In this document: positions 4,663 through 63,609 of the stretch, piece after piece
Numbering within the stretch: position 1 is the first letter of the stretch
Layout of the letters: every line of letters begins with the position of its first letter
Sequence record: PP391266.1
From: Escherichia phage PJNS034
Strand: one strand, 5' to 3'
DNA length: 64,000 bases
Notes under the pieces: generated by a model
What the model saw: only the letters and a program-made list of their open reading frames with translations
Told to the model about the DNA's origin: nothing
The model's database searches: none
Position numbers and translations under genes: made by a program

Positions 4663-4664
4663 AA

Positions 4665-4754: not shown

Positions 4755-4756
4755 AT

Positions 4757-4833: not shown

Positions 4834-4836
4834 AAT

Positions 4837-4925: not shown

Positions 4926-4926
4926 A

Positions 4927-5002: not shown

Positions 5003-5004
5003 AT

Positions 5005-5079
5005 AGCGAGATAGTTCAGTGGTAGAATATCGGTTTCATACGCCGACCGTCGATGGTTCGATTCCATCTCTCGCTACCA
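5005..5079 (+). tRNA. tRNA with CAT anticodon (elongator Met or Ile2 type), CCA encoded
   Basis: Acceptor agcgaga/tctcgct fully paired at 1:72 (not initiator-like), anticodon stem tcggt/gccga with loop ttcatac, T-arm gatgg-ttcgatt-ccatc. Confidence 0.75.
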
Positions 5080-5095
5080 AACCTCTTTATCCGAT

Positions 5096-5167
5096 GGGAG
5101 TGTCCTTCTGGGAAGGATGTGGATTCCAACCCCACTAAGTAGAGTTCGATTCTTTACACTCCCGCCA
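5096..5167 (+). tRNA. tRNA-like, possibly tRNA-Gly (anticodon TCC), CCA encoded
   Basis: Acceptor gggagtg/cactccc and T-arm tagag-ttcgatt-cttta fold well; D-loop very short and one mismatch in the anticodon stem. Confidence 0.45.
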
Positions 5168-5174
5168 AATCCCT

Positions 5175-5251
5175 AGCCTTGTAGTGTAGTCTGGTTAGCA
5201 CACGTGACTTTGACTCACGGAGCTTAGGTTCGAATCCTGACAGGGCTGCCA
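5175..5251 (+). tRNA. tRNA-Gln (anticodon TTG), CCA encoded
   Basis: Acceptor agccttg/cagggct, D-arm gtgt...gcac, anticodon stem cgtga/tcacg with loop ctttgac, T-arm ttagg-ttcgaat-cctga. Confidence 0.8.
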
Positions 5252-5558: not shown

Positions 5559-6220
5559 GTACCATTCAACTTCGTAATTCAGCAGGTGCGATAACGGTAG
5601 ACTCAGATAACAAGGCTGCCCACTACCGTGACCACGTAGCCATGACCACTATTACTGACCGAGGGTATTATGTTTTACCCAATAAGTTAGGTGGTACTGG
5701 TGATATGGGTTATCCTGCAAGGAATCAGCAATTTAAAGCTGATGATAACCTTCAATGGTTCCGATTCAATAACAATGCCAAAGCAATGTTCTGCATCAAC
5801 CAATACCTTGGTGGTGGCTTAGTTACACAGAATGCTGGAGTGATGGCTCGTACACACTTCAACCTTCCGGTAGCTAAAGGCTATATCAACATCTGGAATG
5901 CTCAAGGTCAGTTGATTTGGTCAGATGCTCAGGCAGCGAAGATTCCACGTATTGTGGGCTTCTTCACAATTCCTCCAAACTTTGACTTAGACAACAACGT
6001 GTACTCCCAAAACATTGGTCTGGACAAGTTCATTCTTGCCAGTATGTGTCCGGGTGAAATCAGTGATGATGGTACAGTAGCAGGTTGGTCAGGCTTGTTC
6101 TTTCGAATGGTAAATGGAACGCTGCAAGTGCAGTGGCTCAACAAATACCAGAAAACATGGGCGCAAACTTTTAAGGCAACAGGGATGAAAATCCCATATG
6201 CAATTTTTCCAAACTTATAG
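5555..6220 (+). CDS. hypothetical protein (221 aa)
   Basis: ORF-track ORF whose start overlaps the previous stop. Confidence 0.35.
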   Translation: MSTIQLRNSAGAITVDSDNKAAHYRDHVAMTTITDRGYYVLPNKLGGTGDMGYPARNQQFKADDNLQWFRFNNNAKAMFCINQYLGGGLVTQNAGVMARTHFNLPVAKGYINIWNAQGQLIWSDAQAAKIPRIVGFFTIPPNFDLDNNVYSQNIGLDKFILASMCPGEISDDGTVAGWSGLFFRMVNGTLQVQWLNKYQKTWAQTFKATGMKIPYAIFPNL

Positions 6221-10345: not shown

Positions 10346-10371
10346 AAGGTCACTTCGGTGGCCTTTTCTTT
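10346..10371 (+). terminator. Rho-independent terminator after ligase
   Basis: Stem aggtcac/gtggcct with ttcg loop, followed by tttcttt. Confidence 0.55.
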
Positions 10372-12308: not shown

Positions 12309-15300
12309 ACGCCATTCCTGCCACAGAACCACCGAGATTCATGTACTCTGCAAGGTTAGTGCCGTAAGCATCAGTTGCTCGTAAGTTACGAGACTGGAGA
12401 GCTTTCTTAACAGCACCATGACCAAGCAAGTGAGCAGAAGCTCGGATGCCTTCCATAGTTACCGGAACACCATCAATAGTCTGACCGATGTACTGGTCAA
12501 GACCCATGTTTTTGGTACGACGGTCTAACATCTTATTCCAATCTTCAAAAGCCTTTTCCTGTGCTTCTGGAGAGTTCAGGAACTCCTCTTTCGAGTTAAC
12601 CCCATACTTACCAGTCCAGTTAGACTTCTCGTTCAGAATAGATTTCTGACCACGACCAACACGACCTTGTGACTTGATAATACCTAAGTCAACAAGAGCA
12701 GGCCATCCAAATTGGTACTTACCGACATAACCGAGAGTGTTCTCGATATCGTACTTACCACCGGATTCACGCTGGCCTAACACGTCACCATATGCACTCA
12801 TCATACCTCCTGCATAAGCGCTACCAGCAAACATAGAAGTCAGACCAATTGCACTCAAACCTAATTTCTTAGCCAGTGCATTAGCTGATTTCTCGTTACG
12901 GGCATAACGAACGATAGTTTCTTTATCAGGGTCAACCATCGCATACTCATAGCCTTTATCAAAGGCTACCTCTGGTGAATCAACACCTTCTGCCAGTTCG
13001 TATGGGTTTACCACTTTGATTTCTGGGTCAGATTCCAGTGCTTTACCATCCAGAGCTTCTGCTGCGGTGTCTACAACTTGCTTAACCTGTTCGGTTGGCA
13101 TGTCTTGCATAGCATCGAGCATATTCTCTACTGGTGCTTCTGGAGTAGGAGTCGGTTCAGGTTGTGGTTCAGTTACCACTGGTTCTTCACGTACTGGAGC
13201 AGCAAAGTCTTCCTCAGCCATAACTACTGGCTTCTGTACTGGTTCATCCATCATCGCCTTAGCAATTGGGGATTCATCAGCACGTAAGGCTTGTTTGTAG
13301 TCTTCCAGACTGTTGTAAACCTTCGGAGCACGTTCTGGGTCATACAGGCCGTAAGCAGATGCGATTGCTCGCTGGTTAGCTGGCCCCATATAGTTGGTAG
13401 TCTCACCTTTCCCGAACACTGCTTTAATCTGGTTACGCATGTCCATAGTGTACAGGCCGTTAGCCCCATTCACCATTTTATCGTAGCCTTTAGAGCGACG
13501 GTATTCGATAGCACCAAGTACATCACCCATCGTCTTCGCCTGAGTCATTACGTCAGTAACAGATTCAGAAGCCTTACCTGCGTTGATTGCTTTCTTACCG
13601 AAGTTCTGAATTTGTTTCAGCATCGCATTGGATGCAGTAGCAATGTCAGCTTTCAGGGAATCAGCAATTGCAGCCACTTCTTCTGGAGTGTTACGGGCAA
13701 TGATTTCATCCAACGATGCACGAGTCTGTGCAGCCGTTTCTTCCAGTGACTTAACTTGCTCTTTCAGTGCCTTGATTGGAGCATCCAGTTGAGTTGCTTT
13801 CTTCTCAAGAATTTCCAGCTTACGTTCGTGTGCTTCTTTGCGTTTCTGCTCAGCAGCTTGTTCACGTTTCTGTTTGTCTTGGAGAGCCTTCTCTTCCTTC
13901 GCCTGTTTATCACGGAGAGCTTTGTCAGCAGCTTCTTGCTTATCGTGCATCTTCTGATATTCAGCAGCCAGTTTACGTTGTTCACGTTCCCAAGCCATAT
14001 CAGCTTTCTCACGAGCAGCTTCGTCTTTCGCTTGAGCTTTCGCTTCATCACGTTTAACACGAGCAGCATCTAACAGTTCTTTCTCACGGGCTTTGAAAGC
14101 AGCAATTTCCTCAGCATGTGAATCACGCTGTAAACGTTCTTCTGCACGTTGAGTTTCTTTCAGACGTTTCTGTTCAGCACTTGCTTGTTCTTTCTTCAGA
14201 CGGTCGCCACGTTGTAACAGCTTGTTAGCAGTTGCACGAAGTTCTTTCTGAGTCAGTGGAGCAGTAGAGCCGAAGGTCTGTGCTTCAACAACTTGTAATG
14301 CTTGTTCTTTCGGAATGCCAAGTGAATCAGCAAAGTCCATCAGGTTTTCATGCTGAGCATAAATCTGATTAACTGCATCATCTTCAGCTTTACGGGCTAC
14401 AGTCTCTTCTGGAGTCTCAGCACCTTTAGCCAGAGCATCACGCTCACGTTGCATTGCCTTAATCAGTGAAGCCTTCTCACTATTCGTAAGCTGACGCATA
14501 GAGCCAGTTACAGGGTCAATGTAAGGTGAAGTCAGGTCGTCCATTACGAACTGGTCAAGGCCGTACTTACTTGCCAAACCGGAAATATGTTCGTTCTGGG
14601 TTGTGATGTTTTTAGCTGCTTCATCACGGATACCTGCTTTAACTTCCTCTGCCTCTGTCTTAGCTTTCTCAGCCTGTGCATTACGAGCTTCCTCACGAGC
14701 ACGTTGAGCCAATTCAGTAATCTCACCAGCATCACGGATGTTAGCGATTTGGTCTTCCGGTACACCTGCACGACGAGCACGTTCTTCCAATGCTTGACGT
14801 TCAACTTGTGCTGCACGGTTACGAATGGTTTCAGTTTCACGAATAGCTGCACCCAATACTGCATCCAGACCACGAGGTGCTGGAGCATTTGGAGCAGGAG
14901 CCGCTGGAGTAGGTTCACCAGTTGCCAGTGCTTGCAGGTCAGATGGGTCACGAACTACAGGGGCAGGTTCTGGAACAACAGTAGGCTCTACAACCGTTGG
15001 TTCAGGAGTACGAGCGTATTCCATTGAAGCCAGAGATTGTAATGCTGCTTGTTCTTCTGCACGACTAATGAATCGAGCAGCCTGTTCAGAGTTAACTTCC
15101 GCAATCTGAGCATCAGACCAACCTTTGTTACGAAGCACTTCTGCCTGTACAGGAGAAACACCACCATCAGGTGCTGGCTGAGTCATTTCTGGAGTAACAA
15201 CTGGTTCAGGAGTTACAGTCTGTTCTGGAGCTACAGGTGGTACATCTGGAGTCGGCTCTGGAGCAACATCTGCTGGTGGCGGAGTTGGTTCTTCTGGAGC

Positions 15301-19116: not shown

Positions 19117-19152
19117 ATTTTAAGCTTCTAGCGTCCGAAGGGAAATAATAGG
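19117..19152. repeat. conserved ~36-bp intergenic element, copy 1 (tattttaagcttctagcgtccgaagggaaataatagg)
   Basis: Near-identical to 33004..33039; lies between minus-strand genes, preceded in transcript sense by a hairpin. Confidence 0.6.
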
Positions 19153-33003: not shown

Positions 33004-33039
33004 TATTTTAAGCTTCTAGCGTCCGAAGGGAATAATAGG
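33004..33039. repeat. conserved ~36-bp intergenic element, copy 2
   Basis: tattttaagcttctagcgtccgaagggaataatagg; differs from copy 1 by one A. Confidence 0.6.
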
Positions 33040-33214
33040 GTATGTATTACCAACCCATAGTTTTCTTCACCTTCTCCCACACTTCATCATCGTATGGGGT
33101 CTTGGTGTTCTTCACTAACACATCAATTGATGCTTTAGCGATAGCTTGAGTCAGTTGCAAACCAAGAGCCTTCATAGCCCAAGTCAGAACGATTGGCATA
33201 ATGCCTCCTACAAT

Positions 33215-36822: not shown

Positions 36823-36835
36823 CCTTTCTTACCTC

Positions 36836-39016
36836 TTATTGTGGAAGTGTGGTTGTTGGTTTGCGAGTTCCCATAGACAGGGCTACAGGTCGCTGTTGAG
36901 CCATTTCAAGTTGAGCTTCAATCTCAATCTGACGAGCCTTGAGGTCTAACTCTTGCTTCATCAGCTCAAGCTCCAGCATCTTGAGTTCCAGCTTACGTTC
37001 TTCAAGTTCCAATCCACGTTCAGCAACAAACGAATCACTAGCCATCTTACTCTGACGAGATTCAGATTCAGCTTGGTCAATGTTCATCTTATCACCTGCA
37101 ACCGCTTCATCCAACTCAGCACGTTTCAGCTTAGCTTGCGCTTCCATCTGCTCAGCCTGCATACGACCAGTTGCAACTTCCATCTCATTCTGAATCTTCT
37201 GGAGTTCAAGTTGAACACGTTGTGATTCGAGTTCGATACGTTGCTGCTCAGCTTGCTGTTCTGGAGTCGGGCCTTGAGGTTGAACTTGTTCCATCGGAGT
37301 GATGAAGTTGTTCACATCATAGAATCCCATTGCCAGTGTAAGTTCACGAGCAAGGTGGTTTGCATTCTCAGCGGTGAAAGTAGTACCAGCCAGTAACGGG
37401 TTCTGGGTCAAGAACTGAGAGAGTTGTACAAGGTTGTTAGCACGTTCACGACGTTCGTTCTGACCAATCGCAACTGCAACAATCACTTTGTCTCGGTCAG
37501 GCCAATTCGCTGGCATGACTTCCTTCATCTCACCATTAACTTCAATACGGAGGGTGTTTGTTTCACTCTCTTTCAGAAGACGGTAGATAGCAAGGAACAG
37601 TTGAGTCATGAAGTTCTGAGCGATGTTACGAGCAACCATACGCATACGGTTCTGTGCAGCACTCATCATCATATCAACAGTAGCGTAGCTGTTGTCGTTC
37701 TTAAACACTTCAGGGGACAAGCCCATGCCGATACGGGTTACACCAGTACGACGTTCTTTAGCTTGTTCGATTTGTTCAAGGATATTATCAACACCTGCTG
37801 GCAGGGGGTGATGTGGGAACAGGTCTACCATCCCTACAGCATTCTCTTCTACTACACCACCCGGACGGTTATCCAGAAGGGAGCGCTTATCATACTGACC
37901 TTTAACAGCACGGAAGCGACCATAGTTAGCAGACATGATGTTATCAATGTAACCACGAACCAGTGCAGTCTTAACGTTCTGAATGTCACGAGTAATATCG
38001 AAGACTGACTCACCAATGATGCTGCCCGGAACAGGGAATGGGGTACAGACGTCGAATGGAATCTCACTCACTTCCTCGTAACTGACAATCTGGTTGTTCA
38101 CTTGGAACACCTGATACAGACGAGTCTTACGTCCTTTCAGATTAGTACGAACATAGACTTCATCTACGATGTACTTCTCAAAGTCACGTGGGTCGCCAAA
38201 GTCCAGACCAGTCATGTCTTGGTCACGAGTCATTTCGATATCTTCTGCCACAAGGTCAGTTGAACCTGCACGAGCACGTTCGATATCTTCTTCATCAAAG
38301 CCAAGGTCTACCAGTTCGTTACGAGTCTTCTGAACACGATGGCGGAAGTATGAACATTCCTGAATATTCTTGGAGAATTGGTCGAAGTCGATTTCCTCAG
38401 CGGGAACAAACTCAACACGTACACCAGAGGTATTCACTGGAATGGAGATAGTAGCAGAAACAGTACCATCGTCATTCTTCTCAATCGTCAACATTGAATC
38501 GTCAACTTCATCATTGTCGTCATATTCAGACAGGATGATTTTCAGTTCGTCTTCAGTGACATGCTCCACCTTACGAACGTCTTGTTCAACAGAATGCTGC
38601 CAGTAACGTTTAACAAACGAAACTTTAGACAGGAGACACTCTTTGAATGCGTCGTGAAGTGTGATGTAACCGGGGTTGTCACGCAGCAGAACTTTGTTAA
38701 CCATTGCAGTAGCAGCACGGGCACCATCTGCATCGTAACTGTTTAGAGGAGCAAATCGAACAGCATCTTCACCTGATGTAAATACATTGAGCAGGTCTTG
38801 AAGAGTACCGTTAACTGATTCCCATACAGTTCGGTCAACATAAGAACTACCACCGCGAGTATAAGCAGCAGGAAGTTCACCATAGTAATACTTGTATGCC
38901 TCCTTGATTGATTCACCCAACTTACCTTCCGTAATCGTCAGACTACGACCAGTAAATTGGGTGATGGCTGACTTGAGTTTAGTTAACTCTTTCGTGTCAC
39001 GTTTAATCGCCATCAC
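36836..39016 (-). CDS. portal protein (putative)
   Basis: 726-aa protein immediately downstream of terminase large subunit; C-terminal coiled-coil; assignment by synteny and size. Confidence 0.6.
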   Translation of the reverse strand: MMAIKRDTKELTKLKSAITQFTGRSLTITEGKLGESIKEAYKYYYGELPAAYTRGGSSYVDRTVWESVNGTLQDLLNVFTSGEDAVRFAPLNSYDADGARAATAMVNKVLLRDNPGYITLHDAFKECLLSKVSFVKRYWQHSVEQDVRKVEHVTEDELKIILSEYDDNDEVDDSMLTIEKNDDGTVSATISIPVNTSGVRVEFVPAEEIDFDQFSKNIQECSYFRHRVQKTRNELVDLGFDEEDIERARAGSTDLVAEDIEMTRDQDMTGLDFGDPRDFEKYIVDEVYVRTNLKGRKTRLYQVFQVNNQIVSYEEVSEIPFDVCTPFPVPGSIIGESVFDITRDIQNVKTALVRGYIDNIMSANYGRFRAVKGQYDKRSLLDNRPGGVVEENAVGMVDLFPHHPLPAGVDNILEQIEQAKERRTGVTRIGMGLSPEVFKNDNSYATVDMMMSAAQNRMRMVARNIAQNFMTQLFLAIYRLLKESETNTLRIEVNGEMKEVMPANWPDRDKVIVAVAIGQNERRERANNLVQLSQFLTQNPLLAGTTFTAENANHLARELTLAMGFYDVNNFITPMEQVQPQGPTPEQQAEQQRIELESQRVQLELQKIQNEMEVATGRMQAEQMEAQAKLKRAELDEAVAGDKMNIDQAESESRQSKMASDSFVAERGLELEERKLELKMLELELMKQELDLKARQIEIEAQLEMAQQRPVALSMGTRKPTTTLPQ

Positions 39017-41204: not shown

Positions 41205-42072
41205 TCATGCCACCTAATAATGGGGTTAGTTGAAAGATACACTGTAAGATGGAACCATTCATGCCAGTTCATCTACATGCCATGTCATAAGTATACACTG
41301 ATAAGAGGCTATCATGCCACCTCATACATGCCAGTCCATACTTCTGTGGGGATATAGGTAAGAGATGCTACATCTTACACTACTTATACCTATTATTTCC
41401 CTTCGGAATATAATGTTTAGGGTACAGGAAGAAGTGCCATATGACAAGACTTATTTACCAATTGAATTACAAATTCAGTGAATTTATAAGTGTGAGATAA
41501 CAAAGTGTGGATATTGCTCACTTTTTAACCAGAAACGTAAATTTCACTTGAGCGGTATGTGGCATATCAGCTTTAGCATAATGTTCAAAAAGGGGGAACG
41601 GGTTCCGCTCATGTTCCGGCGTGTGAATGAGGCGTGTAGACTACCACTAGCCCCTACCCTGAGTCAATACCCTCACTGGTCTGATGAGTGTGACTGCTCA
41701 AGTAGTAACCGTGTGATGCCGTGTGATGAGTACCCATCGTGCATAGTTATTCATGATAATTTATTTTTGGATAGCCTGAATAAATAATAGCCAGTGACCC
41801 GTTAGAATCTGCGTGCGTGTCTGATACTGCCTGAGTTATACCTCCATAACGCCAACGTTTAAACGGTGTATTGATAACGGGTAACAAGCCAGCGACAAGT
41901 GAATAAATATTCCAAGAGATAGCATATCTAATCAATCTATCTTCTCTTTATTCCTTTTACAGTGTAATTCTTATTTGTTTATAAGTAATAATTCTCCTCG
42001 ACCTATTGACAATTACCGTCGAGTAAATTACGCGTGTGTTTCATTACGTCTTAAAGAAATGATTTGTTTGTT

Positions 42073-42100
42073 TTGCTATTGACTTTTTAACTCATTCGTT
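42073..42100 (+). promoter_or_regulatory. sigma70-type promoter (TTGACT-16-TAATAT)
   Basis: Hexamers read directly from sequence. Confidence 0.5.
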
Positions 42101-42161
42101 TAATATAGCTCCCCGTTGAAACGCAGAACATCGCGGAGTAAACAAGTTAATCACTAAGTGG

Positions 42162-42190
42162 TTGACTGAATCGGGTTAGTATGTTTTAAT
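42162..42190 (+). promoter_or_regulatory. sigma70-type promoter (TTGACT-17-TTTAAT)
   Basis: Hexamers read directly; followed by AACGCTCTTTAA leader motif. Confidence 0.4.
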
Positions 42191-42371
42191 GCTTACCGAT
42201 TCAAACGCTCTTTAAAAATGTGGTCTGTCTTTAGGTGGTGTTTAACATCATTACTACAAGGCGCTTAGTTAGTTATCTGGTTTTGATTCCTGTTTCATTA
42301 GTGATTCAGGCGGATTGATAAAGCATCTTCAATAAGTCTTTAACAGTTCGATACTTCGAAGAAATTAACGA

Positions 42372-42399
42372 TTGACAGCGTACTAGATTCCTGTAAGAT
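42372..42399 (+). promoter_or_regulatory. sigma70-type promoter (TTGACA-16-TAAGAT)
   Basis: Consensus -35; followed by AACGCTCTTTAA leader motif. Confidence 0.5.
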
Positions 42400-42517
42400 A
42401 GACCACGTTTTAACGCTCTTTAACAATATGAATCATTAACGCTTAAACGTTAGTTTAATCAGACGTTATCAAGTGAAGCTGAAAAGTAACACGATAACAA
42501 ATGATGAAAATAAACGG

Positions 42518-42545
42518 TTGACAGCGTGAAATGATTCGGTATAAT
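42518..42545 (+). promoter_or_regulatory. strong sigma70-type promoter (TTGACA-16-TATAAT)
   Basis: Both hexamers perfect consensus. Confidence 0.65.
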
Positions 42546-43026
42546 GAGCGCCATCGAATGACAGAACGTTGTCAGACGATAGCCGGATAAGTGGATAACT
42601 TATAACGGCAGTTCGATAAAGTAGTGTGGTAGCGGGTAGCGGTATGTAACACGGATAATCTACGGATTAACGGCTTATTTGTTGCTTGCTTAAAGCATAA
42701 AACGTCGGGCGGCACGATGGGAGAAGTGCATAAAATCAATTAGGCTCCCTGACTCTTTAACAATTAGGAAACTACGCACCACAATTAACGTTGGATAACG
42801 TAAAGAGTGGGTTAATTTAGGGTGATTCCCTGCGTAGGCTTGTCGAGCTGATAACAGCGGTATGTGATGGACGCTTATATACTCCCTCCATGATAGTGTA
42901 TGACTGATTCCACCTAGGCCAAAGTGAAAGGGCGATAACGAATAGCAAGTAACAATCTCGTTTGATATGGGCATTTAATAGTGAGTGTCCAGATTAAACG
43001 ATAAAACTGAATTGAGGATTAAACCT

Positions 43027-45527: not shown

Positions 45528-45615
45528 AGCTAAGCCCAAGCGTCCGAAGGGAATATTACTAAGAAATAATATAAGAAAGATTATATCTAACTATATTACT
45601 TCTTATTAATATTCC
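45528..45615. repeat. AT-rich palindromic element sharing TAAGAAATAATATAAG core with 4075..4130
   Basis: Inverted arms gggaatattactaagaa / ttcttattaatattccc; same 16-mer as upstream of 4141. Confidence 0.5.
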
Positions 45616-45717
45616 CTTACTTATTGGAGGAGTTATGTTATCTCTTATCAAACTTCATCAAGATAAACTAATCATTGCACTGGTTGTGATTCTGTCCTGC
45701 TTGAACATGGATGGTGT

Positions 45718-49716: not shown

Positions 49717-50645
49717 GACAAACGACTATGATTCGCACCCCATTCGGTAACTTCTCTGGTAAGACTATCGGTATCACTGCTGGCGTGATTGTGTTCCTCT
49801 TCATCCTGCTGCTGTTGAAGCCGTTCAAAGTTATCTCTGACACCGAGGAGGGTGTGCAGAAGTCGTGGTCAGGCCAGATTTACAGTCAACCAATGACTGC
49901 TGGCTTCCACTGGATGAACCCGTTCAACAGCGTCACAACGTTCCCAATGACGTATAAGAACGTTCAACTGACAAATATCGGCGTTCCTGCTCAGGACGGT
50001 TTCAAAACCACGATGGATATCAGCGTAACTGGTAAATTTATTCCGGGCATGACCCCTGCTGTCCTGAAGTCTACCGGTAATTCTGAACAGTTTGCAGCAG
50101 TGCATATCTCTAAACGTATCACAGCTAAGCTGATTGATGCTGGTAAGAAGCACGCTGTAATCAGTCAGAACTTCTACGATGAAAGCACTCTGAACAAAGT
50201 TCGTGAAGAAATCATCGTAACGGCTAACCAAGAGCTTGAGCCTCTGGGTTGGAAAGTGACTGCGGTTGAAATCAGCAACATCGACCTGCCGGACGTTATC
50301 AAGAACGCTATCAGCGAGTCCAAGGTTCGTGCTGAACAGGTTAAGCGTCAGAAAGAATCCTTAGCAATTGCTGCTCTGAAAGCACAAGAGATTGAGAAAG
50401 TTGCAGAGTCTAACTCTAAAGCAACTATCCTCGATGCTGATGCTAACGAGTACAAAGCTAAGAAAGAAGCTGATGCTAAAGTGTATGCTGCTGCTCAGGA
50501 AGCAAAAGGTAACAAAGAAGTTGCTGCCTCTGTAACTCCTGCTCTGGTTGAATACATGAATGCTCAAGCTAAGATGAAGTGGGATGGTCAGATGCCAACA
50601 ACGAATGTTGGTTCTAACACTCCTGTCATCATGAGCATGAAGTAA
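49713..50645 (+). CDS. SPFH/band-7 (stomatin/prohibitin-like) membrane protein
   Basis: N-terminal hydrophobic anchor, then band-7-like core and Ala/Lys/Glu-rich coiled-coil tail. Confidence 0.55.
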   Translation: MRQTTMIRTPFGNFSGKTIGITAGVIVFLFILLLLKPFKVISDTEEGVQKSWSGQIYSQPMTAGFHWMNPFNSVTTFPMTYKNVQLTNIGVPAQDGFKTTMDISVTGKFIPGMTPAVLKSTGNSEQFAAVHISKRITAKLIDAGKKHAVISQNFYDESTLNKVREEIIVTANQELEPLGWKVTAVEISNIDLPDVIKNAISESKVRAEQVKRQKESLAIAALKAQEIEKVAESNSKATILDADANEYKAKKEADAKVYAAAQEAKGNKEVAASVTPALVEYMNAQAKMKWDGQMPTTNVGSNTPVIMSMK

Positions 50646-50653
50646 TATACTCA

Positions 50654-50677
50654 AGCCCATCTATATGGTGGGCTTTA
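50654..50677 (+). terminator. intergenic hairpin with conserved flanks (cassette copy 1)
   Basis: agcccatc...gatgggct stem, flanked by ATACTCAAG and CTTTATGAAT. Confidence 0.4.
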
Positions 50678-50706
50678 TGAATGTTACTTAAACGAGGAAC
50701 TAAAAG

Positions 50707-50844
50707 ATGTTTGAATTTATCGGTGATTGTATTGCAACAACACTCAAGGCTGGATTGGGTGTGGTATTCATTGTGCTTATCTGGGTTGGCTTCCAGATGG
50801 CATGGAACTGGACGCTTGACCGTATTCGCTGGGGATTCAAATGA
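50707..50844 (+). CDS. small membrane protein (45 aa), holin-like size
   Basis: Read by eye: MFEFIGDCIATTLKAGLGVVFIVLIWVGFQMAWNW; preceded by conserved leader. Confidence 0.3.
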   Translation: MFEFIGDCIATTLKAGLGVVFIVLIWVGFQMAWNWTLDRIRWGFK

Positions 50845-51014
50845 AAATTGAGTTCACTGGAATGAAAGGTGGTCAGCATTGCTTCAAGAAAGGGGCATTG
50901 ACTTACCGCTTTAGCGAGGACGAACTCGCACAAATCGTTGGCTATGCTGTACGTATGGCAAAGGCTAACAACAACAAAACCCTGAAACAAACTAACTCCA
51001 AAAAGGACAAATGA
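50841..51014 (+). CDS. hypothetical small protein (57 aa)
   Basis: Read by eye; ATGA overlap with previous ORF. Confidence 0.25.
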   Translation: MKIEFTGMKGGQHCFKKGALTYRFSEDELAQIVGYAVRMAKANNNKTLKQTNSKKDK

Positions 51015-51015
51015 A

Positions 51016-52413
51016 ATGCCAATCGTAACTATCGTAACTAACCGTAATAACTCTGAAACTAAGCGTGTTGAAGCTCAGTCAGGCGGTTGCTTCGGCTTTA
51101 TGGCATCAACCTCTTTCTTCCGTGACCATCGCCGCGATGTTGAGTACGTTGGTTATCATATGGAGTCATCCAATCAGGCTAAGCATTGTAGCGAAGTCTT
51201 TGATGGTAAGAATAAGTTATTCCCGTATCACAAATTCATGACCAACAATGAGTTCCATGCTATGTTCGGTGAGAACTTTGTGGATACTCGCCACGGTACT
51301 GTTAGTCACCACGGTTATGTGGTTGTTGAAATGCAGCCAGAAGGTTTTGAAGGTGTTGGTATTCCACAGGACATGTTCATCTCTGGTCTGTTCACTGCTC
51401 GTCAGTTGAGCTATGGCCTGTATCCGAACATGCGTGACACCATTAAGAAAGGTGTTCACCCAATGATGGCTTACGTTATCAGTGAGCTGATTCAGTGGGA
51501 AGATACAAGCACTGCTCTTGCTGCACAGCTTCGCTGGAAACGTCAGCGTGTTAGTTCTTCCAACATCGACAGCACAGCGTTCGGTAAGAAGAACCTGATT
51601 AACATGTTCAACTGCCTGAAAGGTAAGAAGCATGTGCCTTACTTCGGTCACGAAGGTGGCATCATTCAGCGTGGTGGTTACAAGCGTGACCATAACTTCA
51701 ACACCTCTGCTGATAATCGTCCGGGTATTTATCAGACAATCACGGCGAACATGAACACTTCATCTGCACCGATTGAAGCTGATGAACCAATCATCAACCC
51801 GTTCCACTTCTCTCCAGCTTACCTCGGTCATGTACTGAATGAACTGCTGGGTTGTGAAGTATTTGATATGTCGAAGATGCTTGACCGTCAGGGTATGAAA
51901 GTTAACCCAAAATCTTCGGTGTACAAGTTCTACCAGATGCGTGATGTGAAGTTCCGTAAGTCATATCGAAAAGGTGATATGGTTGAAGTTCGTGCTGATA
52001 TGTTCGGTGCTGACCAGTACATCAACCGTCACAACACTCCGCTGAGCAATCTGGTTTCTTATCGTCATGGTGAGAACAACACCACTAACCGTGTTGGTTT
52101 CGTACCGGTTAAGACTCATGTTGAGAAGGTCAGCGTGAAGAACGGTGTGGAAAGCGTTAAGCTGGAAAACGGTTGCTGGGTATCTCCACGTTACATCAAA
52201 ACTGCTGGTACTCATGCGGTTGAAGGTGTGAAGATTCAGGCAGGTACTGACACTCCGGTAAATGCACTGTATACAGTTCGTAATTCAAAAGAAGTGTATG
52301 CTGCACGTACCTTTGACTTGTTCGAAGCATCTGTTCGACTGATTCAGGTTACTGGTAACAGTATCGGTCAAGAGATTATCAAGCGTCCACGTGACCTGAT
52401 TCCAGCGCTCTAA
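51016..52413 (+). CDS. hypothetical protein (465 aa), first large gene of the ligase cluster
   Basis: Long ORF with no motif I can assign; contiguous with the amide-ligase genes. Confidence 0.5.
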   Translation: MPIVTIVTNRNNSETKRVEAQSGGCFGFMASTSFFRDHRRDVEYVGYHMESSNQAKHCSEVFDGKNKLFPYHKFMTNNEFHAMFGENFVDTRHGTVSHHGYVVVEMQPEGFEGVGIPQDMFISGLFTARQLSYGLYPNMRDTIKKGVHPMMAYVISELIQWEDTSTALAAQLRWKRQRVSSSNIDSTAFGKKNLINMFNCLKGKKHVPYFGHEGGIIQRGGYKRDHNFNTSADNRPGIYQTITANMNTSSAPIEADEPIINPFHFSPAYLGHVLNELLGCEVFDMSKMLDRQGMKVNPKSSVYKFYQMRDVKFRKSYRKGDMVEVRADMFGADQYINRHNTPLSNLVSYRHGENNTTNRVGFVPVKTHVEKVSVKNGVESVKLENGCWVSPRYIKTAGTHAVEGVKIQAGTDTPVNALYTVRNSKEVYAARTFDLFEASVRLIQVTGNSIGQEIIKRPRDLIPAL

Positions 52414-52567
52414 TGGGTATTAATAAGACCATGACTACAGCGTTCTTTATCCTCGCTGTAGCATCGCCAATACTTGCCTGTTTCAATACAACAGCAGCAG
52501 CATTTAGTGCTGGCATGGCTGTCTTCGCAATGCTTTGTTATGTTGTAGCGAACGGTTGATATACTCA

Positions 52568-52595
52568 AGGTCATTCACAAAGTGAGTGGCCTTTA
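52568..52595 (+). terminator. intergenic hairpin with conserved flanks (cassette copy 2)
   Basis: aggtcattcac / gtgagtggcct stem, flanked by ATACTCAAG and CTTTATGAAT. Confidence 0.4.
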
Positions 52596-52645
52596 TGAAT
52601 ATCATCTGCCAATAACGGCAACTTAAACTGAACGAGGAAACTACT

Positions 52646-53455
52646 ATGACGATTCGCCTGATTACTCTTGGTGCTGACCCTGAAACTATTGTTGCTCGCA
52701 ACGGTGTTCCAACTCACGCTATTGGTCTTATCGGCGGTACTAAGGAAGAACCACGTAAGATTATCCGTGGTGGTCGTGAAGTTGGTGCGGTGCAGGAAGA
52801 TAATGTCCTGTATGAGTTCAACATCATGCCACACGATACTCGTCAGGGATTCATTGACAACATTCAGCAGATGTTGGAAGTGGGTCGTGAGATTCTGGGT
52901 GATGGTTACGAAATCACTAATAAGACTTCTCACATCTTCTCTGATGAAGACATGGCTCATTTCCCTGACTCAGCGTTTATCTTCGGTTGTGAACCGGATT
53001 TCTTCGCTGGTAATGGTGAGATGAATCCGAAGCCTGCTGCACCGTGGCCGGGTCTGCGTACCGCAGGTGGTCATGTTCACTTCGGGTTCGATGAGCGTGT
53101 AGTTCGTGATGATGAGAATGTTCGTTCTCTGATTCAACTGTGCGATATGTATATGGCGTTGCCGTCAATGCTTCTGGACACTGACGACCTGCGTAAAGAA
53201 CTGTATGGTAAGGCCGGTGCATTCCGTCCGAAAGCATATGGTGCTGAATATCGTACACTGTCAGGTTTCTGGATTCATAATCCTGAAAATACTGGCTTCG
53301 TGTTTGACCAAGCGCAGAAAGCGTATGATGCGTTGGCAACTGGTCTGGGTCGTGAGATGTTGGCACGTTTCCCATACGAACTGGTTGTCGATATCATCAA
53401 CAGCAATGACCGTGGACGTGCTGAACGTGCCCTGAAAGTTATGCAGGTTGCATAA
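52646..53455 (+). CDS. amidoligase-like protein, divergent (269 aa)
   Basis: GADPETIV and TAGGHVHFGF parallel the GLELELE and STHVHLD segments of the downstream amidoligase-like ORF; preceded by conserved leader. Confidence 0.4.
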   Translation: MTIRLITLGADPETIVARNGVPTHAIGLIGGTKEEPRKIIRGGREVGAVQEDNVLYEFNIMPHDTRQGFIDNIQQMLEVGREILGDGYEITNKTSHIFSDEDMAHFPDSAFIFGCEPDFFAGNGEMNPKPAAPWPGLRTAGGHVHFGFDERVVRDDENVRSLIQLCDMYMALPSMLLDTDDLRKELYGKAGAFRPKAYGAEYRTLSGFWIHNPENTGFVFDQAQKAYDALATGLGREMLARFPYELVVDIINSNDRGRAERALKVMQVA

Positions 53456-53637
53456 TGGAAGAAGGTCTGCTGATTAGCTGGGTTGAATCTCCAGCGAACC
53501 GTAAGACCAAGACTCATACCCTCTTCTTCGAAAGCCTGGACGAGGGTTATGAGTTCATGGCCTCTAAAAGTTGTGTAATTCAAGTACAACGCATTCCACT
53601 GGTGAGAAAGAATGGCGAAACTGGTAACGGTAAATAA
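53455..53637 (+). CDS. hypothetical protein (60 aa)
   Basis: ORF-track ORF, start overlaps previous stop. Confidence 0.25.
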   Translation: MEEGLLISWVESPANRKTKTHTLFFESLDEGYEFMASKSCVIQVQRIPLVRKNGETGNGK

Positions 53638-53803
53638 CGCAGATAAAACTGTAACTCGTCGTGTCTTTATGGACAACGAAGAGGGTATCATGTGGGCAGT
53701 TGACCAAGCCCGCACAGCACTGTCAGTCGTGACTGATGATGTGGAAGTGGTCGAGGCTTCCAGCCGTAAAGGTTGGGAAGGTCATATCGCATGTGATTGC
53801 TAA
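53612..53803 (+). CDS. hypothetical protein (63 aa)
   Basis: ORF-track ORF. Confidence 0.25.
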   Translation: MAKLVTVNNADKTVTRRVFMDNEEGIMWAVDQARTALSVVTDDVEVVEASSRKGWEGHIACDC

Positions 53804-53827
53804 TTTAAACTGAACGAGAGAACTAAA

Positions 53828-54436
53828 ATGTCAATCAATATGTCAAGTGGTGATTTACGTCTGTATTGGGGTGGGTGTTATGCACCTGTTGCATGGGATG
53901 CAGCAGATAGTGGCGTAGCAACACTGGTAATTCACGACGTTCGTGTGATAAATCCAATGTCACGTGACTACACCGAAGCACGAGTTCAAGGTGAACTATT
54001 CTTCATTCGTAATGGAGAAGAGGCTCGTGGTAATTTTGAAGGTCGTATGTCTGACCTCCTCGGTGATGGGTTCACCACTCCTCAACGCAATATCGGTTAT
54101 ATCCGTGTTCACGGTCAACCGTATTGGATTACCTTCAAACGTCGTCGTACAAATCGTAAAGGCATCACCAATGACCGTCTGGCTGTGTATGTAGCTGGGC
54201 ATCGTGGTGAAGCAGGTTTGAACTTCGGTAGTGATGTGTTGTGTCGTCTGTATGCAACCTTTGATGGTCGTATCTCTGATGATTTCTGTATTCATCAGAA
54301 CATGATTCATTATAAAGGTGTGGTTGTCGGACGTTATGAGCGTCACAATCGTATTGTATTAGCTGAACGTTTTGCGTATCTTAGCTGGTCGCTGGAACGT
54401 ATCGGTGGTTACGACGTAACGGTGGAGGTTGAGTAA
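53828..54436 (+). CDS. hypothetical protein (202 aa) inside ligase cluster
   Basis: Preceded by conserved TTAAACTGAACGAG leader; stop overlaps amidoligase start. Confidence 0.4.
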   Translation: MSINMSSGDLRLYWGGCYAPVAWDAADSGVATLVIHDVRVINPMSRDYTEARVQGELFFIRNGEEARGNFEGRMSDLLGDGFTTPQRNIGYIRVHGQPYWITFKRRRTNRKGITNDRLAVYVAGHRGEAGLNFGSDVLCRLYATFDGRISDDFCIHQNMIHYKGVVVGRYERHNRIVLAERFAYLSWSLERIGGYDVTVEVE

Positions 54437-55260
54437 TGATTATTGCTGACATTTTAGGGCATGGTCGTGGGTCGGATGTTGTTGATACGCATCCGTTGAT
54501 TGTTGGTCGAGGCCGTGTAGGACTCGAATTAGAACTGGAGAATATGCCAAATGCTCGACAAGCTGCTGGTTGGACAGTTACTGGTGACGGTTCTCTGCGT
54601 AATAGCGGCGTGGAATATGTACTCCGTGGTGCTCAGGGAGGTATGGAGTTATTTAATTCGATACTTTCTCTGGAAGAAGCACTCATGGCACATCAATGTG
54701 ATGCTAACCTTCGCTGCTCTACTCACGTTCACCTTGATATACGTCGGCTCACTGTGGCTCAACTCAAGCGTTTACTTCTGGCTTATACAGTCTTTGAGCC
54801 ATTAATCTTTGAGTTGTCCGGTGCGCATCGTCGTACTAACAACTTCTGTCCGTCGTTTAGTTTCGCTCAGCAACAAATTCGTAAGCTGAGTAACAACTGG
54901 CATCATGATGGTGAACGATTCCTTGCTCGTATTGTGGAAGGTCGTGACCGCCAATCCAGTGATAAGTATTCAGCACTGAATCTGGTTCCAATCTTCACTC
55001 AGGGTTCTGTAGAGTTCCGTGGTGCAGAAGCGAAGCCAAGTGCAGGTAAGATGATTCGTCTGGCTAACCGTATTCTAAGTCTGTATGACTTAGCGGTTAA
55101 CTCTGATATGAATCAGTCTGATGCTGAGTTCATTAACTCACTGGCGAACCTTGATGTTCAACAGGCATTGATGGGTACGATTCCTCGTGACTTCGAACTC
55201 AGCGAAGAACTGGTGAATGAAGGACGTGTCTTAGCGTTCGATATTATCTCTCTGGGGTGA
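54436..55260 (+). CDS. amidoligase (Amidoligase_2 / carboxylate-amine ligase-like) protein
   Basis: VGLELELE...DGSLRNSGVEYV...STHVHLD resembles the putative amidoligase family (glutamine-synthetase-like fold) as recalled. Confidence 0.5.
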   Translation: MIIADILGHGRGSDVVDTHPLIVGRGRVGLELELENMPNARQAAGWTVTGDGSLRNSGVEYVLRGAQGGMELFNSILSLEEALMAHQCDANLRCSTHVHLDIRRLTVAQLKRLLLAYTVFEPLIFELSGAHRRTNNFCPSFSFAQQQIRKLSNNWHHDGERFLARIVEGRDRQSSDKYSALNLVPIFTQGSVEFRGAEAKPSAGKMIRLANRILSLYDLAVNSDMNQSDAEFINSLANLDVQQALMGTIPRDFELSEELVNEGRVLAFDIISLG

Positions 55261-55261
55261 C

Positions 55262-55477
55262 ATGAGCTGGAACGAACGAGAGTATCGTAAACCAAAGTTG
55301 GGCACTGTATGTGTCCACTTCGAACCTTCGTATAAGTCAACCTTTGGAAGTACGAAGAAGTTCCCTAACGCATCGTTCTACTTGAGTACGAACGGTGTAA
55401 TCATCATCCGTGATATGGATGGTGACAACATCTGTGCATACCCTGAAGGTGTGTGGCTGAATGTTGAAATGAAGTGA
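55262..55477 (+). CDS. hypothetical protein (71 aa)
   Basis: ORF-track ORF; followed by a clean terminator hairpin. Confidence 0.3.
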   Translation: MSWNEREYRKPKLGTVCVHFEPSYKSTFGSTKKFPNASFYLSTNGVIIIRDMDGDNICAYPEGVWLNVEMK

Positions 55478-55485
55478 TTAACTCA

Positions 55486-55508
55486 AGCCCTTCTTCGGGA
55501 GGGTTTTA
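55486..55508 (+). terminator. Rho-independent terminator (cassette copy 3)
   Basis: 8-bp stem agcccttc/ggagggtt with ttcg loop, then tttta; preceded by AACTCAAG. Confidence 0.55.
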
Positions 55509-55563
55509 TGGTAATCATTACCACAAACTATTGAAACTAACTATTGAACTTGAGGAAAGTATT

Positions 55564-58938: not shown

Positions 58939-58967
58939 TTGCTTTAGGGTATTCTTCGGAGTACCCT

Positions 58968-59189
58968 ATGTCGATTGAACCGAACGAGGAATATATGAAA
59001 GTATGGGTAGTTATGTTCCAAGAGTATGACCTAGCCGAAGTGCTGGAAATCTACTCGAAGGAAGAAGATGCTATAGCACATCGTCAGGCTGAAATTGATA
59101 AGAGCTTGTCATACGCTAAGAAGTGGAATGTCAAACCACACCCTGCGCTCGAACAGTTTTATACAATTCACGAAAAAGAGGTAAAGTAA
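58968..59189 (+). CDS. hypothetical protein (73 aa)
   Basis: ATG lies at the 3' edge of a hairpin whose loop carries GGAG. Confidence 0.3.
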   Translation: MSIEPNEEYMKVWVVMFQEYDLAEVLEIYSKEEDAIAHRQAEIDKSLSYAKKWNVKPHPALEQFYTIHEKEVK

Positions 59190-63080: not shown

Positions 63081-63609
63081 TGCGTTCGATATTGAGACGG
63101 ATAACTTATATCATGGAGTTACCCGTCTTTGGTGCAGCAGTCACATCGACGTTGATAGCGGTTGTGTTACTGAGTATCGTCCTGAATGTTATCAAAGCGT
63201 TGGTGAGCACTTATTACGGTGTAAACGAGACAACGTTGTTGTGGTCGGTCATAACATCGTAGACTTCGACTTACCAGCGATTGAGAAAGTGTTGGGTGTG
63301 GATTTGGATGGTATTGCATTCATTGATACACTCGTCATTTCTCGTGCTCTGGAACCTGACCTCGAAGGAGGTCATTCCTTGAAGATGTGGGGTAAACGTC
63401 TTGGTATCTTAAAAGGTACTTATGGGGAAGATGAAGGGGAAGCAGCATGGGACAAGTTCTCAGAAGACATGATGGAATACTGTACACAGGACGTTAAGGT
63501 CACTGTTGCACTGGTTAAACATCTGCTTGAGGATTTAGCAGGTATCCCACGGAACGAATGGTACAAGGTTGTACAAGTTTATAATTCACCACTTAAAGGT
63601 AAACGTTAA
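63061..63609 (+). CDS. DNA polymerase 3'-5' proofreading exonuclease domain, separately encoded
   Basis: Exo I-like FDIETD and Exo II-like VVGHNIVDFD; ends in a stop overlapping the dUTPase start; start taken at internal ATG with GAGG upstream. Confidence 0.75.
   Translation: MHYQTFDAFDIETDNLYHGVTRLWCSSHIDVDSGCVTEYRPECYQSVGEHLLRCKRDNVVVVGHNIVDFDLPAIEKVLGVDLDGIAFIDTLVISRALEPDLEGGHSLKMWGKRLGILKGTYGEDEGEAAWDKFSEDMMEYCTQDVKVTVALVKHLLEDLAGIPRNEWYKVVQVYNSPLKGKR

What the first reader, a model, noticed from the sequence alone, without database searches (positions are those of the whole stretch)
50645..55563. Repeated intergenic cassette: ACTCAAG - GC hairpin - TTTATG(A/G)(A/T), and a conserved pre-ATG leader
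Three intergenic regions (about 50647-50685, 52561-52600, 55478-55510) share the flanks A(T/A)ACTCAAG and (C/T)TTTATG around hairpins of different sequence. Three genes (starts 50707, 52646, 53828) are preceded by the near-identical leader TTAAAC(TG)AACGAG(G/A)(A)AACTA(A/C). Conserved flanks around variable stems suggest a recognised processing or termination signal rather than chance; the common leader suggests co-regulated translation initiation.
Basis: seen in the sequence. Interest (0 to 1): 0.5.

Follow-up and report, generated by a model that had tools for sequence, protein, structure and literature searches.

The report
T7-type RNase III sites, non-T7 phage
The three repeated intergenic "cassettes" match the well-known hairpins at which the host enzyme RNase III cuts phage T7's long messenger RNAs; here they sit in an unrelated 65-kb phage, so this is a familiar mechanism in a new place.

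Summary
The pattern ACTCAAG-hairpin-TTTATG occurs three times, against 0.06 expected by chance, always on the gene strand and directly after a stop codon.

Each copy is about 50 nt and has four parts:
- a lower stem that contains the upstream gene's stop codon;
- an asymmetric internal loop, ACUC on the 5' side and UAUGA or UAUGG on the 3' side;
- a 9-12 bp upper stem that starts AAG and ends CUU or UUU;
- an apical loop.

This is the architecture and the conserved sequence of phage T7's RNase III processing signals R0.3, R0.5, R1.1 and R18.5. The second cassette is almost identical to T7 R1.1.

I built a covariance model from T7-group sites only. In the window it finds exactly these three sites (48, 46.5 and 32.7 bits). 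It also finds two orthologous sites in the closest relative, Pantoea phage TacPo2, and an untrained T7 site, R6.5.

The phage is a KSP100/TacPo2-like relative of phiEco32. It has no T7-type RNA polymerase, so host polymerase must make the transcripts.

The most likely mechanism is a single RNase III cut at UAU^G. This would leave a protective 3' hairpin on the upstream mRNA and a G-poor leader on the downstream one. Cleavage has not been tested.

The shared pre-ATG leader is also real and is conserved in TacPo2. It resembles the T7 gene 0.3 leader. Co-regulation is unproven.

This is a new member of a known kind.

The parts
50640..50689 (+). RNase III-type processing hairpin W1. Lower stem 50640-50648 / 50681-50689, containing the TAA stop codon (50643-50645) of the SPFH-domain gene. 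Internal loop ACUC 50649-50652 / UAUGA 50676-50680. Upper stem 50653-50661 / 50667-50675. Apical loop 50662-50666. Predicted cut between U50678 and G50679.
   Evidence: The T7-only covariance model scores it 48.0 bits, E=2e-8. The centroid fold has the same architecture as T7 R1.1 and R0.3, z=-5.8. The lower stem and loop flanks are identical in TacPo2 while the upper stem has been replaced by a different, still paired sequence.
52557..52604 (+). RNase III-type processing hairpin W2. Lower stem 52557-52562 / 52599-52604, containing the TGA stop codon (52557-52559) of the 48-aa ORF. Internal loop ACUC 52563-52566 / UAUGA 52594-52598. Upper stem 52567-52578 / 52582-52593. Apical loop 52579-52581. 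Predicted cut between U52596 and G52597.
   Evidence: 46.5 bits, E=4.7e-8; z=-5.2. The first 10 bp of the upper stem are identical to T7 R1.1. The TacPo2 orthologue L124 3236-3290 scores 59.2 bits.
55474..55518 (+). RNase III-type processing hairpin W3. Lower stem 55474-55480 / 55512-55518, containing the TGA stop codon (55475-55477) of the 71-aa ORF. Internal loop ACUC 55481-55484 / UAUGG 55507-55511. Upper stem 55485-55493 / 55498-55506. UUCG tetraloop 55494-55497. Predicted cut between U55509 and G55510.
   Evidence: 32.7 bits, E=1e-4; z=-3.6. Its 3' loop UAUGG matches T7 R18.5. The cassette is absent from TacPo2 as a clean 44-nt gap in the alignment.
50688..50709 (+). Leader and ribosome-binding region TTAAAC-GAGG-AACTAAAAG-ATG of the 45-aa ORF. 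It begins in the last 2 nt of the W1 lower stem.
   Evidence: TTAAAC directly after the lower stem is conserved in TacPo2.
52623..52648 (+). Leader TTAAACTGAACGAGGAAACTACT-ATG of the COOH-NH2 ligase gene, 26 nt downstream of the predicted W2 cut.
   Evidence: Exact 14-mer shared with 53805. It matches TacPo2 at 25 of 26 positions even though a 16-nt indel lies between hairpin and leader. It resembles the T7 gene 0.3 leader AACTGCACGAGGTAAC.
53805..53830 (+). Leader TTAAACTGAACGAGAGAACTAAA-ATG of the 202-aa ORF. No hairpin precedes it; the intergenic gap is only 24 nt.
   Evidence: The TacPo2 orthologue has ACTGAACGAGAAAACTGAAT-ATG.

Best explanation
The three cassettes are processing signals for the host's RNase III, of the same type as the phage T7 sites R0.3, R0.5, R1.1 and R18.5.

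Proposed mechanism
1. Host RNA polymerase makes long polycistronic + strand transcripts across the SPFH / amidoligase / glutamine-amidotransferase gene cluster.
2. Each cassette in that RNA folds into a lower stem, a 4/5-nt asymmetric internal loop and an upper stem of about 9-12 bp.
3. RNase III binds the AAG/CUU proximal part of the upper stem. Because of the internal loop, it cuts only one strand, on the 3' side, at UAU^G (50678^50679, 52596^52597, 55509^55510).
4. The upstream mRNA then ends in the upper hairpin, which shields it from 3'-to-5' exonucleases.
5. The downstream mRNA starts with a short, G-poor, unstructured leader carrying a GAGG Shine-Dalgarno sequence.
6. The result is discrete mRNA segments of about 1.9 kb and 2.9 kb whose stability and translation can differ.

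Shown here: the sequence and structure match, covariation in both stems, position and strand, recurrence in TacPo2, and the absence of a T7-type polymerase.

Inferred: cleavage itself, the exact cut position, and the effects on stability and translation.
For: 1. Same conserved sequence as T7 sites
- The pattern hits T7 at 862-891 (directly upstream of gene 0.3), 1437-1469, 5857-5888 and 36826-36857. A variant lies at 13863-13893.
- These positions correspond to R0.3, R0.5, R1.1, R18.5 and R4.7 as I recall them from Dunn & Studier 1983.

2. Same geometry
- PMC6121014 describes R1.1 as having an asymmetric 4 nt/5 nt internal loop. The centroid folds of W1 and W2 show exactly 4 and 5 unpaired nt between two stems. 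W3 does so in the T7 register of the model alignment, although its own predicted fold extends the lower stem by two pairs into that loop. T7 R1.1 and R0.3 fold like W1 and W2 in the same run.

3. Independent model
- Covariance model R1 was trained on 17 T7-group sites only.
- In the 64-kb window it finds exactly W1, W2 and W3, all on the + strand, with filters on or off. The next hit has E=0.38.
- It also recovers T7 R6.5, which was not in the training set, at 47.9 bits.

4. Covariation
- On 15 sites, 95.7% of cells are paired and 14 of 17 pairs change on both sides. Versions with the partners slid by 1-3 columns are 39-54% paired.
- Within the window the lower stems covary: TAATAT/ATGTTA, TGATAT/ATATCA and TGATTA/TAATCA.

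5. Conservation pattern in TacPo2
- At the W1 orthologue the lower stem and loop flanks are 100% identical, while the upper stem is a completely different sequence that still pairs.

6. Stop-codon register
- The stop codon sits in the lower stem in the same register (stop + 3 nt + ACUC) as in T7 R0.5 and R18.5.

7. Literature
- Internal loops restrict RNase III to one phosphodiester, and the resulting 3' hairpin protects against 3'-5' exonucleases (PMC1540722).
- The T7 early transcript of about 7 kb, made by host polymerase, is cut at five such sites (PMC4858673).

8. Who transcribes
- No T7-type RNA polymerase or T7 0.7 kinase is encoded.
- Strong sigma70-type promoters lie upstream at 42.1-42.5 kb.
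Against: - No transcript or cleavage data exist for this phage.
- The host is inferred only from relatives (Serratia KSP100, Pantoea TacPo2), and its RNase III was not examined.
- W3 scores lower (32.7 bits) and has a G-U instead of G-C at the third pair of the upper stem.
- The TacPo2 orthologue of W1 has GGA/UCC in place of AAG/CUU. G-C pairs in the proximal box can inhibit RNase III (PMC1540722), so not every copy need be an efficient substrate.
- The cut positions rest partly on T7 coordinates recalled from memory.
Confidence: 0.85

Rival explanations
1. The cassettes are Rho-independent (intrinsic) transcription terminators that end transcripts after the upstream gene.
For: Each has a GC-rich hairpin directly after a stop codon, followed by UUU(U)AU. 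W3 passes the tool's terminator filter. Partial termination at such hairpins cannot be excluded from sequence alone.
Against: - W1 and W2 fail the terminator filter because their tails have fewer than 5 T in 8.
- The genome's evident terminators have longer, different tails (UUUCUU...) at 7211, 10346, 17229(-), 22477(-), 27459(-) and 43634.
- The conserved 5' ACUC and the covarying lower stem have no role in intrinsic termination.
- The TacPo2 orthologue of W1 keeps the structure but has CCUCUGA, with no U-tract.
- Host polymerase reads through five equivalent T7 sites to make a ~7-kb precursor (PMC4858673).
Confidence: 0.07
2. The 5' flank TATACT / TTAACT is a -10 element, and the cassettes mark weak sigma70 promoters.
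For: The scan reports CTGTCA-17-TATACT at 50623-50651, 9 of 12 matches. The T7 record annotates the minor 'E. coli promoter E' at 36836, inside R18.5, which shares GTGATATACTCAAGG.
Against: - No promoter-like match was reported at W2 or W3, and W3 has TTAACT.
- Promoter-like matches in the region are fewer than in shuffles: 16 against 31.5.
- A start about 7 nt downstream would fall inside the upper stem, which leaves the two-stem covariation unexplained.
- This reading could coexist with the main explanation as a minor side activity.
Confidence: 0.03
3. The hairpins are binding sites for a phage-encoded RNA-binding regulator, or small mobile DNA repeats with no RNA function.
For: W3 is present in the window and absent from TacPo2 as a clean 44-nt indel. 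The sequence context around W2 differs between the two phages.
Against: - All copies lie on the coding strand.
- G-U pairs are tolerated and a UUCG tetraloop is present, which are RNA-level features.
- I saw no flanking direct repeats at the W3 indel.
- The element is shared with T7, where the cutting enzyme is known, so no extra factor is needed.
Confidence: 0.03

Closest known systems
Phage T7 RNase III processing signals with an asymmetric internal loop (R0.3, R0.5, R1.1, R4.7, R18.5; Dunn & Studier 1983; the R1.1 model substrate of Nicholson's laboratory)
   Same: - Conserved ACUCAAG ... CUUUAUG(A/G) sequence.
- 4/5-nt internal loop between a lower stem and a 9-12 bp upper stem.
- Intercistronic position on the gene strand.
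- Stop codon inside the lower stem in the same register.
- Followed by a G-poor leader with a GAGG Shine-Dalgarno sequence.
- W2 and its TacPo2 orthologue are nearly identical to R1.1. The TacPo2 copy has 1 mismatch in the central 34 nt.
   Different: - The host genome is a ~65-kb phiEco32-related podovirus, not an autographivirus. Its primase-helicase and DNA polymerase are only about 27% identical to T7's, and it has no T7-type RNA polymerase or 0.7 kinase.
- There are only three sites, clustered in 5 kb of one gene cluster.
- None is paired with a phage-polymerase promoter.
- Cleavage has not been shown.
Intrinsic (Rho-independent) terminators
   Same: A GC-rich stem-loop after a stop codon, followed by a few U residues.
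   Different: The U-tract is short and interrupted. There is an additional conserved 5' flank and a covarying lower stem. The genome's own terminators carry different tails.
Other bacterial and phage RNase III substrates (lambda N-leader and sib, rRNA precursor stems, mRNA sites mapped in E. coli)
   Same: The same enzyme would act, on a helix of roughly two turns.
   Different: By my recollection, those substrates lack the ACUCAAG/CUUUAUG consensus and are mostly cut on both strands. They were not examined here. The window's sites belong specifically to the single-cut T7 type.
T7 gene 0.3 leader / ribosome-binding region
   Same: AACTGCACGAGGTAAC in T7 against AACTGAACGAGGAAAC at 52626-52641. 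Both lie downstream of an RNase III hairpin and are G-poor.
   Different: The leader at 53805 has no hairpin upstream. No functional data exist for the TTAAAC part. The similarity may reflect shared constraints rather than common descent.

Membership tests
T7-type single-cleavage RNase III processing signal | Irregular hairpin: lower stem, asymmetric 4 nt/5 nt internal loop, and an upper stem of about 9-12 bp closed by a small loop | tested here: met
   Centroid folds of W1 and W2 have the same architecture as T7 R1.1 and R0.3. W3 matches in the model alignment, though its own predicted fold adds two pairs inside the internal loop. All five were folded in the same run. The 4/5 loop of R1.1 is described in PMC6121014.
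T7-type single-cleavage RNase III processing signal | Conserved sequence around the internal loop and proximal helix: ACUC-AAG ... CUU-UAUG(A/G) | tested here: met
   Present exactly in W1 and W2. W3 has UUU-UAUGG, which resembles R18.5.
T7-type single-cleavage RNase III processing signal | Significant score against a sequence-plus-structure model built only from T7-group sites | tested here: met
   48.0, 46.5 and 32.7 bits (E = 2e-8, 4.7e-8, 1e-4), with no other significant hit in 64 kb. The model also recovers the untrained T7 R6.5.
T7-type single-cleavage RNase III processing signal | Base pairing maintained by compensatory changes in both stems | tested here: met
   95.7% of cells paired and 14 of 17 pairs changed on both sides, against 39-54% paired when the partners are slid. 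The alignment was fitted to the model, which inflates these figures somewhat. The independent MAFFT alignment A1 gave 92.4%.
T7-type single-cleavage RNase III processing signal | Intercistronic location within a polycistronic transcript, on the sense strand | tested here: met
   All three lie on the + strand between + strand ORFs, directly after stop codons. That the region is transcribed as one polycistronic RNA is inferred, not shown.
T7-type single-cleavage RNase III processing signal | Cleavage by RNase III at one phosphodiester on the 3' side of the internal loop, in vivo and in vitro | not testable with these tools
   This needs RNA end mapping in wild-type and rnc-deficient hosts, or an in vitro assay.
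Intrinsic terminator | Stable GC-rich hairpin immediately followed by a U-rich tract (at least 5 U in 8) | tested here: not met
   W1 and W2 are not reported by the terminator scan; only W3 is. The TacPo2 orthologue of W1 has no U-tract.
Rfam-curated RNA family | Match at gathering score to any Rfam 15 model | tested here: not met
   The only matches in the window are nine tRNAs. Nothing in Rfam 15 matched the cassettes at its gathering score.

The most novel reading that the evidence does not exclude
The RNase III hairpin, possibly together with its leader, is a small regulatory module that moves horizontally between unrelated enterobacterial phage families rather than arising by convergence.

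Support
- W2 and its TacPo2 orthologue are almost base-for-base T7 R1.1, including the variable upper stem, in a genome whose best-conserved proteins are only about 27% identical to T7's.
- W3 is present or absent between close relatives.
- Isolated copies occur in a 7-11-like phage (L127) and in other non-T7 contigs (L058, L088, L119).

If true, phages that rely entirely on host RNA polymerase could acquire ready-made mRNA-processing punctuation by recombination.
Probability: 0.4. Interest if true: 0.5.

Novelty: new member of a known kind. Interest (0 to 1): 0.35.

Why it matters
- It supplies a concrete, testable annotation for three unannotated intergenic elements. It also corrects a gene start in the only sequenced close relative.
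- T7-style mRNA processing by host RNase III is not confined to T7-like phages. It also appears in a lineage that uses host RNA polymerase throughout.
- The near identity to T7 R1.1, set against very distant proteins, makes these elements a useful marker for exchange of regulatory RNA modules between phage families.
- The covariance model built here could annotate such sites across phage genomes, where they are often mislabelled as terminators or absorbed into over-extended CDSs.

Tried and rejected
- ACTCAAG alone is not enriched (16 against 12.5 expected), so the heptamer by itself means nothing.
- A degenerate search for the leader with 2 mismatches is no better than chance (9 against 5.9). 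Only the exact pair is informative.
- The search for related loci with the 465-aa protein found no relatives in viral contigs. tblastn of that protein found only TacPo2, so deep comparative data for the orthologous sites are lacking.
- Of 120 viral-contig pattern matches, about 100 are chance hits without a hairpin.
- Rfam shows nothing at the cassettes.
- A phage sigma-dependent promoter reading of the leader was considered. The published phiEco32 (tAATGTAtA) and 7-11 (GTAAtg-16-aCTA) promoter motifs (PMC8948821) are not evident in these leaders by eye. A transcription start 6-9 nt downstream would also remove the conserved Shine-Dalgarno sequence.
- A Pfam scan of ten early or middle proteins found no sigma factor. 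These sigmas are very divergent, so this is not informative.
- ECBP2, a phiEco32-like phage with the syntenic amidoligase cluster, has no T7-type site in 39.5 kb. The sites are therefore not a general feature of that gene cluster.
- Literature searches for tables of T7 site coordinates failed.
Full report
**1. What is in the sequence**

ACTCAAG on its own is not enriched: there are 16 copies against 12.5 expected. The composite ACTCAAG-N8-36-TTTATG, however, occurs three times against a mean of 0.063 in 300 first-order Markov resamples, and none of those had three. All three copies lie on the + strand, each directly after the stop codon of a + strand ORF.

**2. Anatomy**

Folding the intergenic regions shows that the "conserved flanks" are not single-stranded. 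AAG pairs with CTT (TTT in W3) at the base of the GC-rich hairpin. A further 6-9 bp outer stem encloses the whole element. Each cassette therefore consists of a lower stem, an internal loop of 4 nt (ACUC) opposite 5 nt (UAUGA or UAUGG), a 9-12 bp upper stem, and an apical loop.

| Site | Extent | z-score against 200 shuffles |
|---|---|---|
| W1 | 50640-50689 | -5.8 |
| W2 | 52557-52604 | -5.2 |
| W3 | 55474-55518 | -3.6 |

The lower stems differ in sequence but stay complementary: TAATAT/ATGTTA, TGATAT/ATATCA and TGATTA/TAATCA. Each contains the upstream ORF's stop codon.

**3. Identification**

- An exact-pattern scan of viral contigs returned many contigs of about 39-40 kb, including T7 itself. 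In T7 the match lies directly upstream of gene 0.3.
- In the complete T7 sequence the same flanks occur at 862-891, 1437-1469, 5857-5888 and 36826-36857, with a variant at 13863-13893.
- As I recall from Dunn & Studier 1983, RNase III cuts after 890 (R0.3), 1468 (R0.5), 5887 (R1.1) and 36856 (R18.5), with R4.7 at the variant site. In each of the four the cut falls at UAU^G within the motif.
- I could not retrieve a coordinate table from the literature. The literature held does confirm three things:
  - R1.1 lies between genes 1 and 1.1 and has an asymmetric 4 nt/5 nt internal loop with one primary cleavage site (PMC6121014).
  - R1.1 RNA is cut at a single phosphodiester (PMC4858673).
  - T7 has ten RNase III sites (PMC6938266).
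- W2 shares the first 10 bp of its upper stem with R1.1.
- The TacPo2 orthologue of W2 differs from R1.1 at one position in the central 34 nt.

**4. Independent test**

I aligned 17 sites from T7 and T7-like contigs, excluding the window and TacPo2 (A1). On that alignment the proposed two-stem structure is 92.4% paired, and 11 pairs change on both sides. I then built covariance model R1 from it.

| Source | Site | Bits | E-value |
|---|---|---|---|
| Window | W1 | 48.0 | 2e-8 |
| Window | W2 | 46.5 | 4.7e-8 |
| Window | W3 | 32.7 | 1e-4 |
| TacPo2 | W2 orthologue | 59.2 | 3.9e-11 |
| TacPo2 | W1 orthologue | 31.2 | 2.3e-4 |
| T7 | R6.5 (untrained) | 47.9 | 3.1e-8 |

With filters off, nothing else in the window is significant; the next hit has E=0.38. 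W1 and W2 therefore score like authentic T7 sites; R1.3, for comparison, scores 48.0 bits. On the 15-site alignment A5, 95.7% of cells pair and 14 of 17 pairs show changes on both sides. Slid controls pair at 39-54%. Rfam shows nothing at the cassettes at its gathering scores.

**5. Genome context**

- The window is most of a ~65-kb phage genome.
- Its portal protein is 93% identical to that of Serratia phage KSP100 and 89% identical to that of Pantoea phage TacPo2. It is 41-48% identical to portals of phiEco32-like and 7-11-like podoviruses.
- The cassettes lie in a cluster whose order matches phiEco32-like phages: SPFH gene, COOH-NH2 ligase, amidoligase, glutamine amidotransferase, ATP-grasp gene.
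- tblastn with 23 T7 proteins finds only gp4 and gp5 homologues at about 27% identity, plus a shorter gp5 piece at 31%. There is no T7 RNA polymerase and no 0.7 kinase.
- Strong sigma70-type promoters lie at 42.1-42.5 kb on the + strand, including a perfect TTGACA-16-TATAAT.
- The cassette RNAs are therefore most probably made by host RNA polymerase, like the T7 early region. [quoted passage not shown]

**6. Comparison with TacPo2**

- W1's orthologue has identical lower-stem and loop flanks. Its upper stem is entirely different yet fully paired, and the 3' loop is UCUGA with no U-tract.
- W2's orthologue is conserved although the upstream ORF differs. A 16-nt indel separates the hairpin from the leader.
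- W3 is absent from TacPo2 as a clean 44-nt indel.
- This pattern fits an RNA structure under selection, and a modular element that can be gained or lost.

**7. Mechanism**

Internal loops limit RNase III to one phosphodiester. [quoted passage not shown] By analogy I predict cuts at 50678^50679, 52596^52597 and 55509^55510. The upstream mRNAs would end in the upper hairpin. The downstream mRNAs would begin with GAAUGUUACUUAAACGAGG..., GAAUAUCAUC... and GGUAAUCAUUACC.... This step is inferred, not shown.

**8. Rival explanations**

- *Terminator.* Only W3 passes the scan's filter. The genome's evident terminators have UUUCUU-type tails. The lower stem and the ACUC have no role in termination. 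T7's equivalent sites are read through by host polymerase (PMC4858673).
- *Promoter.* TATACT resembles a -10 element, and T7's minor E. coli promoter E is annotated inside R18.5. However, W3 has TTAACT, W2 and W3 have no promoter-like match, and a promoter would not explain covariation in two stems.
- *Regulator site or mobile repeat.* I saw no flanking direct repeats at the W3 indel. The G-U pairs and the UUCG loop are RNA-level features.

**9. The leader**

- TTAAACTGAACGAG is exact at 52623 and 53805 and occurs nowhere else. The two leaders match at 22 of 27 positions in the same register to the ATG. 50688-50706 is a shorter form.
- The 52623 leader is 25/26 identical in TacPo2 despite the adjacent indel. 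The 53805 leader is also largely conserved there.
- Related versions of the form AAACT..TGAAY.GAGGA precede the genes at 43027 and 55564.
- It resembles the T7 gene 0.3 leader, AACTGCACGAGGTAAC. More generally it resembles the G-poor, A/C-rich leaders with a GAGG Shine-Dalgarno sequence that follow RNase III sites in T7-like phages.
- The simplest reading is an efficient, unstructured ribosome-binding region. Specific co-regulation is possible but untested.

**10. Distribution and novelty**

- W2 has blastn matches in 1083 phage records. In the sample of 60 listed, all but one are genomes of 37-45 kb from T7-, SP6-, KP32- and ICP3-like phages.
- Outside that group, R1 finds a single R1.3-like site in the 7-11-like Salmonella phage pSal-SNUABM-01 (L127 25753-25807, 31.5 bits).
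- It finds one site each on three non-T7 contigs.
- It finds none in 39.5 kb of the phiEco32-like phage ECBP2.
- A search of the paper library for phiEco32 together with RNase III returned only a general review, with nothing specific to such sites.
- The finding is therefore a new member of a well-known kind. The one less ordinary aspect is near identity to T7 R1.1 in a phage whose proteins are very distant, which points to horizontal exchange of a small regulatory module.

Noticed in passing
window 42079-42763 (+): Early control region with three sigma70-like promoters: 42079-42106, 42372-42399, and a perfect TTGACA-16-TATAAT at 42518-42545. It also holds three boxA-like antitermination motifs: GCTCTTTAACAA exact at 42415, and one mismatch each at 42207 and 42752. 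T7 has CGCTCTTTAACAA just upstream of R0.3. Together this suggests a T7-early-like strategy in which host polymerase makes long, antiterminated transcripts.
   Followed up: partly
window 19134-19152 (-), ~33010-33050 (-), 41389-41407 (+): A repeat of about 40 nt, CCTATTATT(T)CCCTTCGGACGCTAGAAGCTTAAAATA, lies upstream of two blocks of structural genes on the - strand. Its first 19 nt also occur once on the + strand at 41389. The 19-mer is found twice against 0.03 expected. These are candidate late promoters or regulatory sites.
   Followed up: partly
window ~4075-4130 and ~45550-45620: Two long AT-rich inverted repeats share TAAGAAATAATATAAG and form extended predicted hairpins in intergenic regions. 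Their function is unknown.
   Followed up: no
window 4423-5248 (+): A cluster of nine tRNA genes. TacPo2 has eleven at the corresponding place.
   Followed up: no
L124 (TacPo2) 3256-3311: The annotated start of TacPo2_6 (3256) runs through the RNase III hairpin. The conserved leader and the ATG at 3311 (MTIRNITLGADPE...) indicate the real start. Every CDS of the record listed here is annotated 'hypothetical protein'.
   Followed up: yes
window 63088-63549 and 761-2446 (+): T7 gp5-like DNA polymerase is encoded in two separate ORFs: an exonuclease part near the window's right end and a polymerase part near its left end. phiEco32-like phages have the same split. The window therefore appears to be a circularly permuted view of the genome.
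   Followed up: partly
window 58945-58970 (+): The hairpin GGGTATTC-TTCG-GAGTACCC ends in the start codon of the 58968 ORF and is preceded by TTGCTTTAGGG, faintly like T7 R1.3. Model R1 scores it only 11.7 bits (E=5.9). It may be a translational-control hairpin or a degenerate processing site.
   Followed up: partly
L127 25753-25807; L058 10223-10280; L088 4503-4559 (-); L119 728-782: Isolated T7-type RNase III hairpins occur in phages that are not T7-like: a 7-11-like Salmonella phage and three metagenomic or prophage contigs. This suggests a patchy distribution of the element across phage families.
   Followed up: partly
window 272-296 and 10346-10366 (+): Two terminator-like hairpins begin AAGG and end CCTT, like the upper stem of the cassettes, but are followed by TCTT/TTCTTT tails and lack the ACUC loop and the lower stem. 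Model R1 scores them 16.6 and 12.4 bits, which is not significant. They may be related to the cassettes in origin.
   Followed up: no
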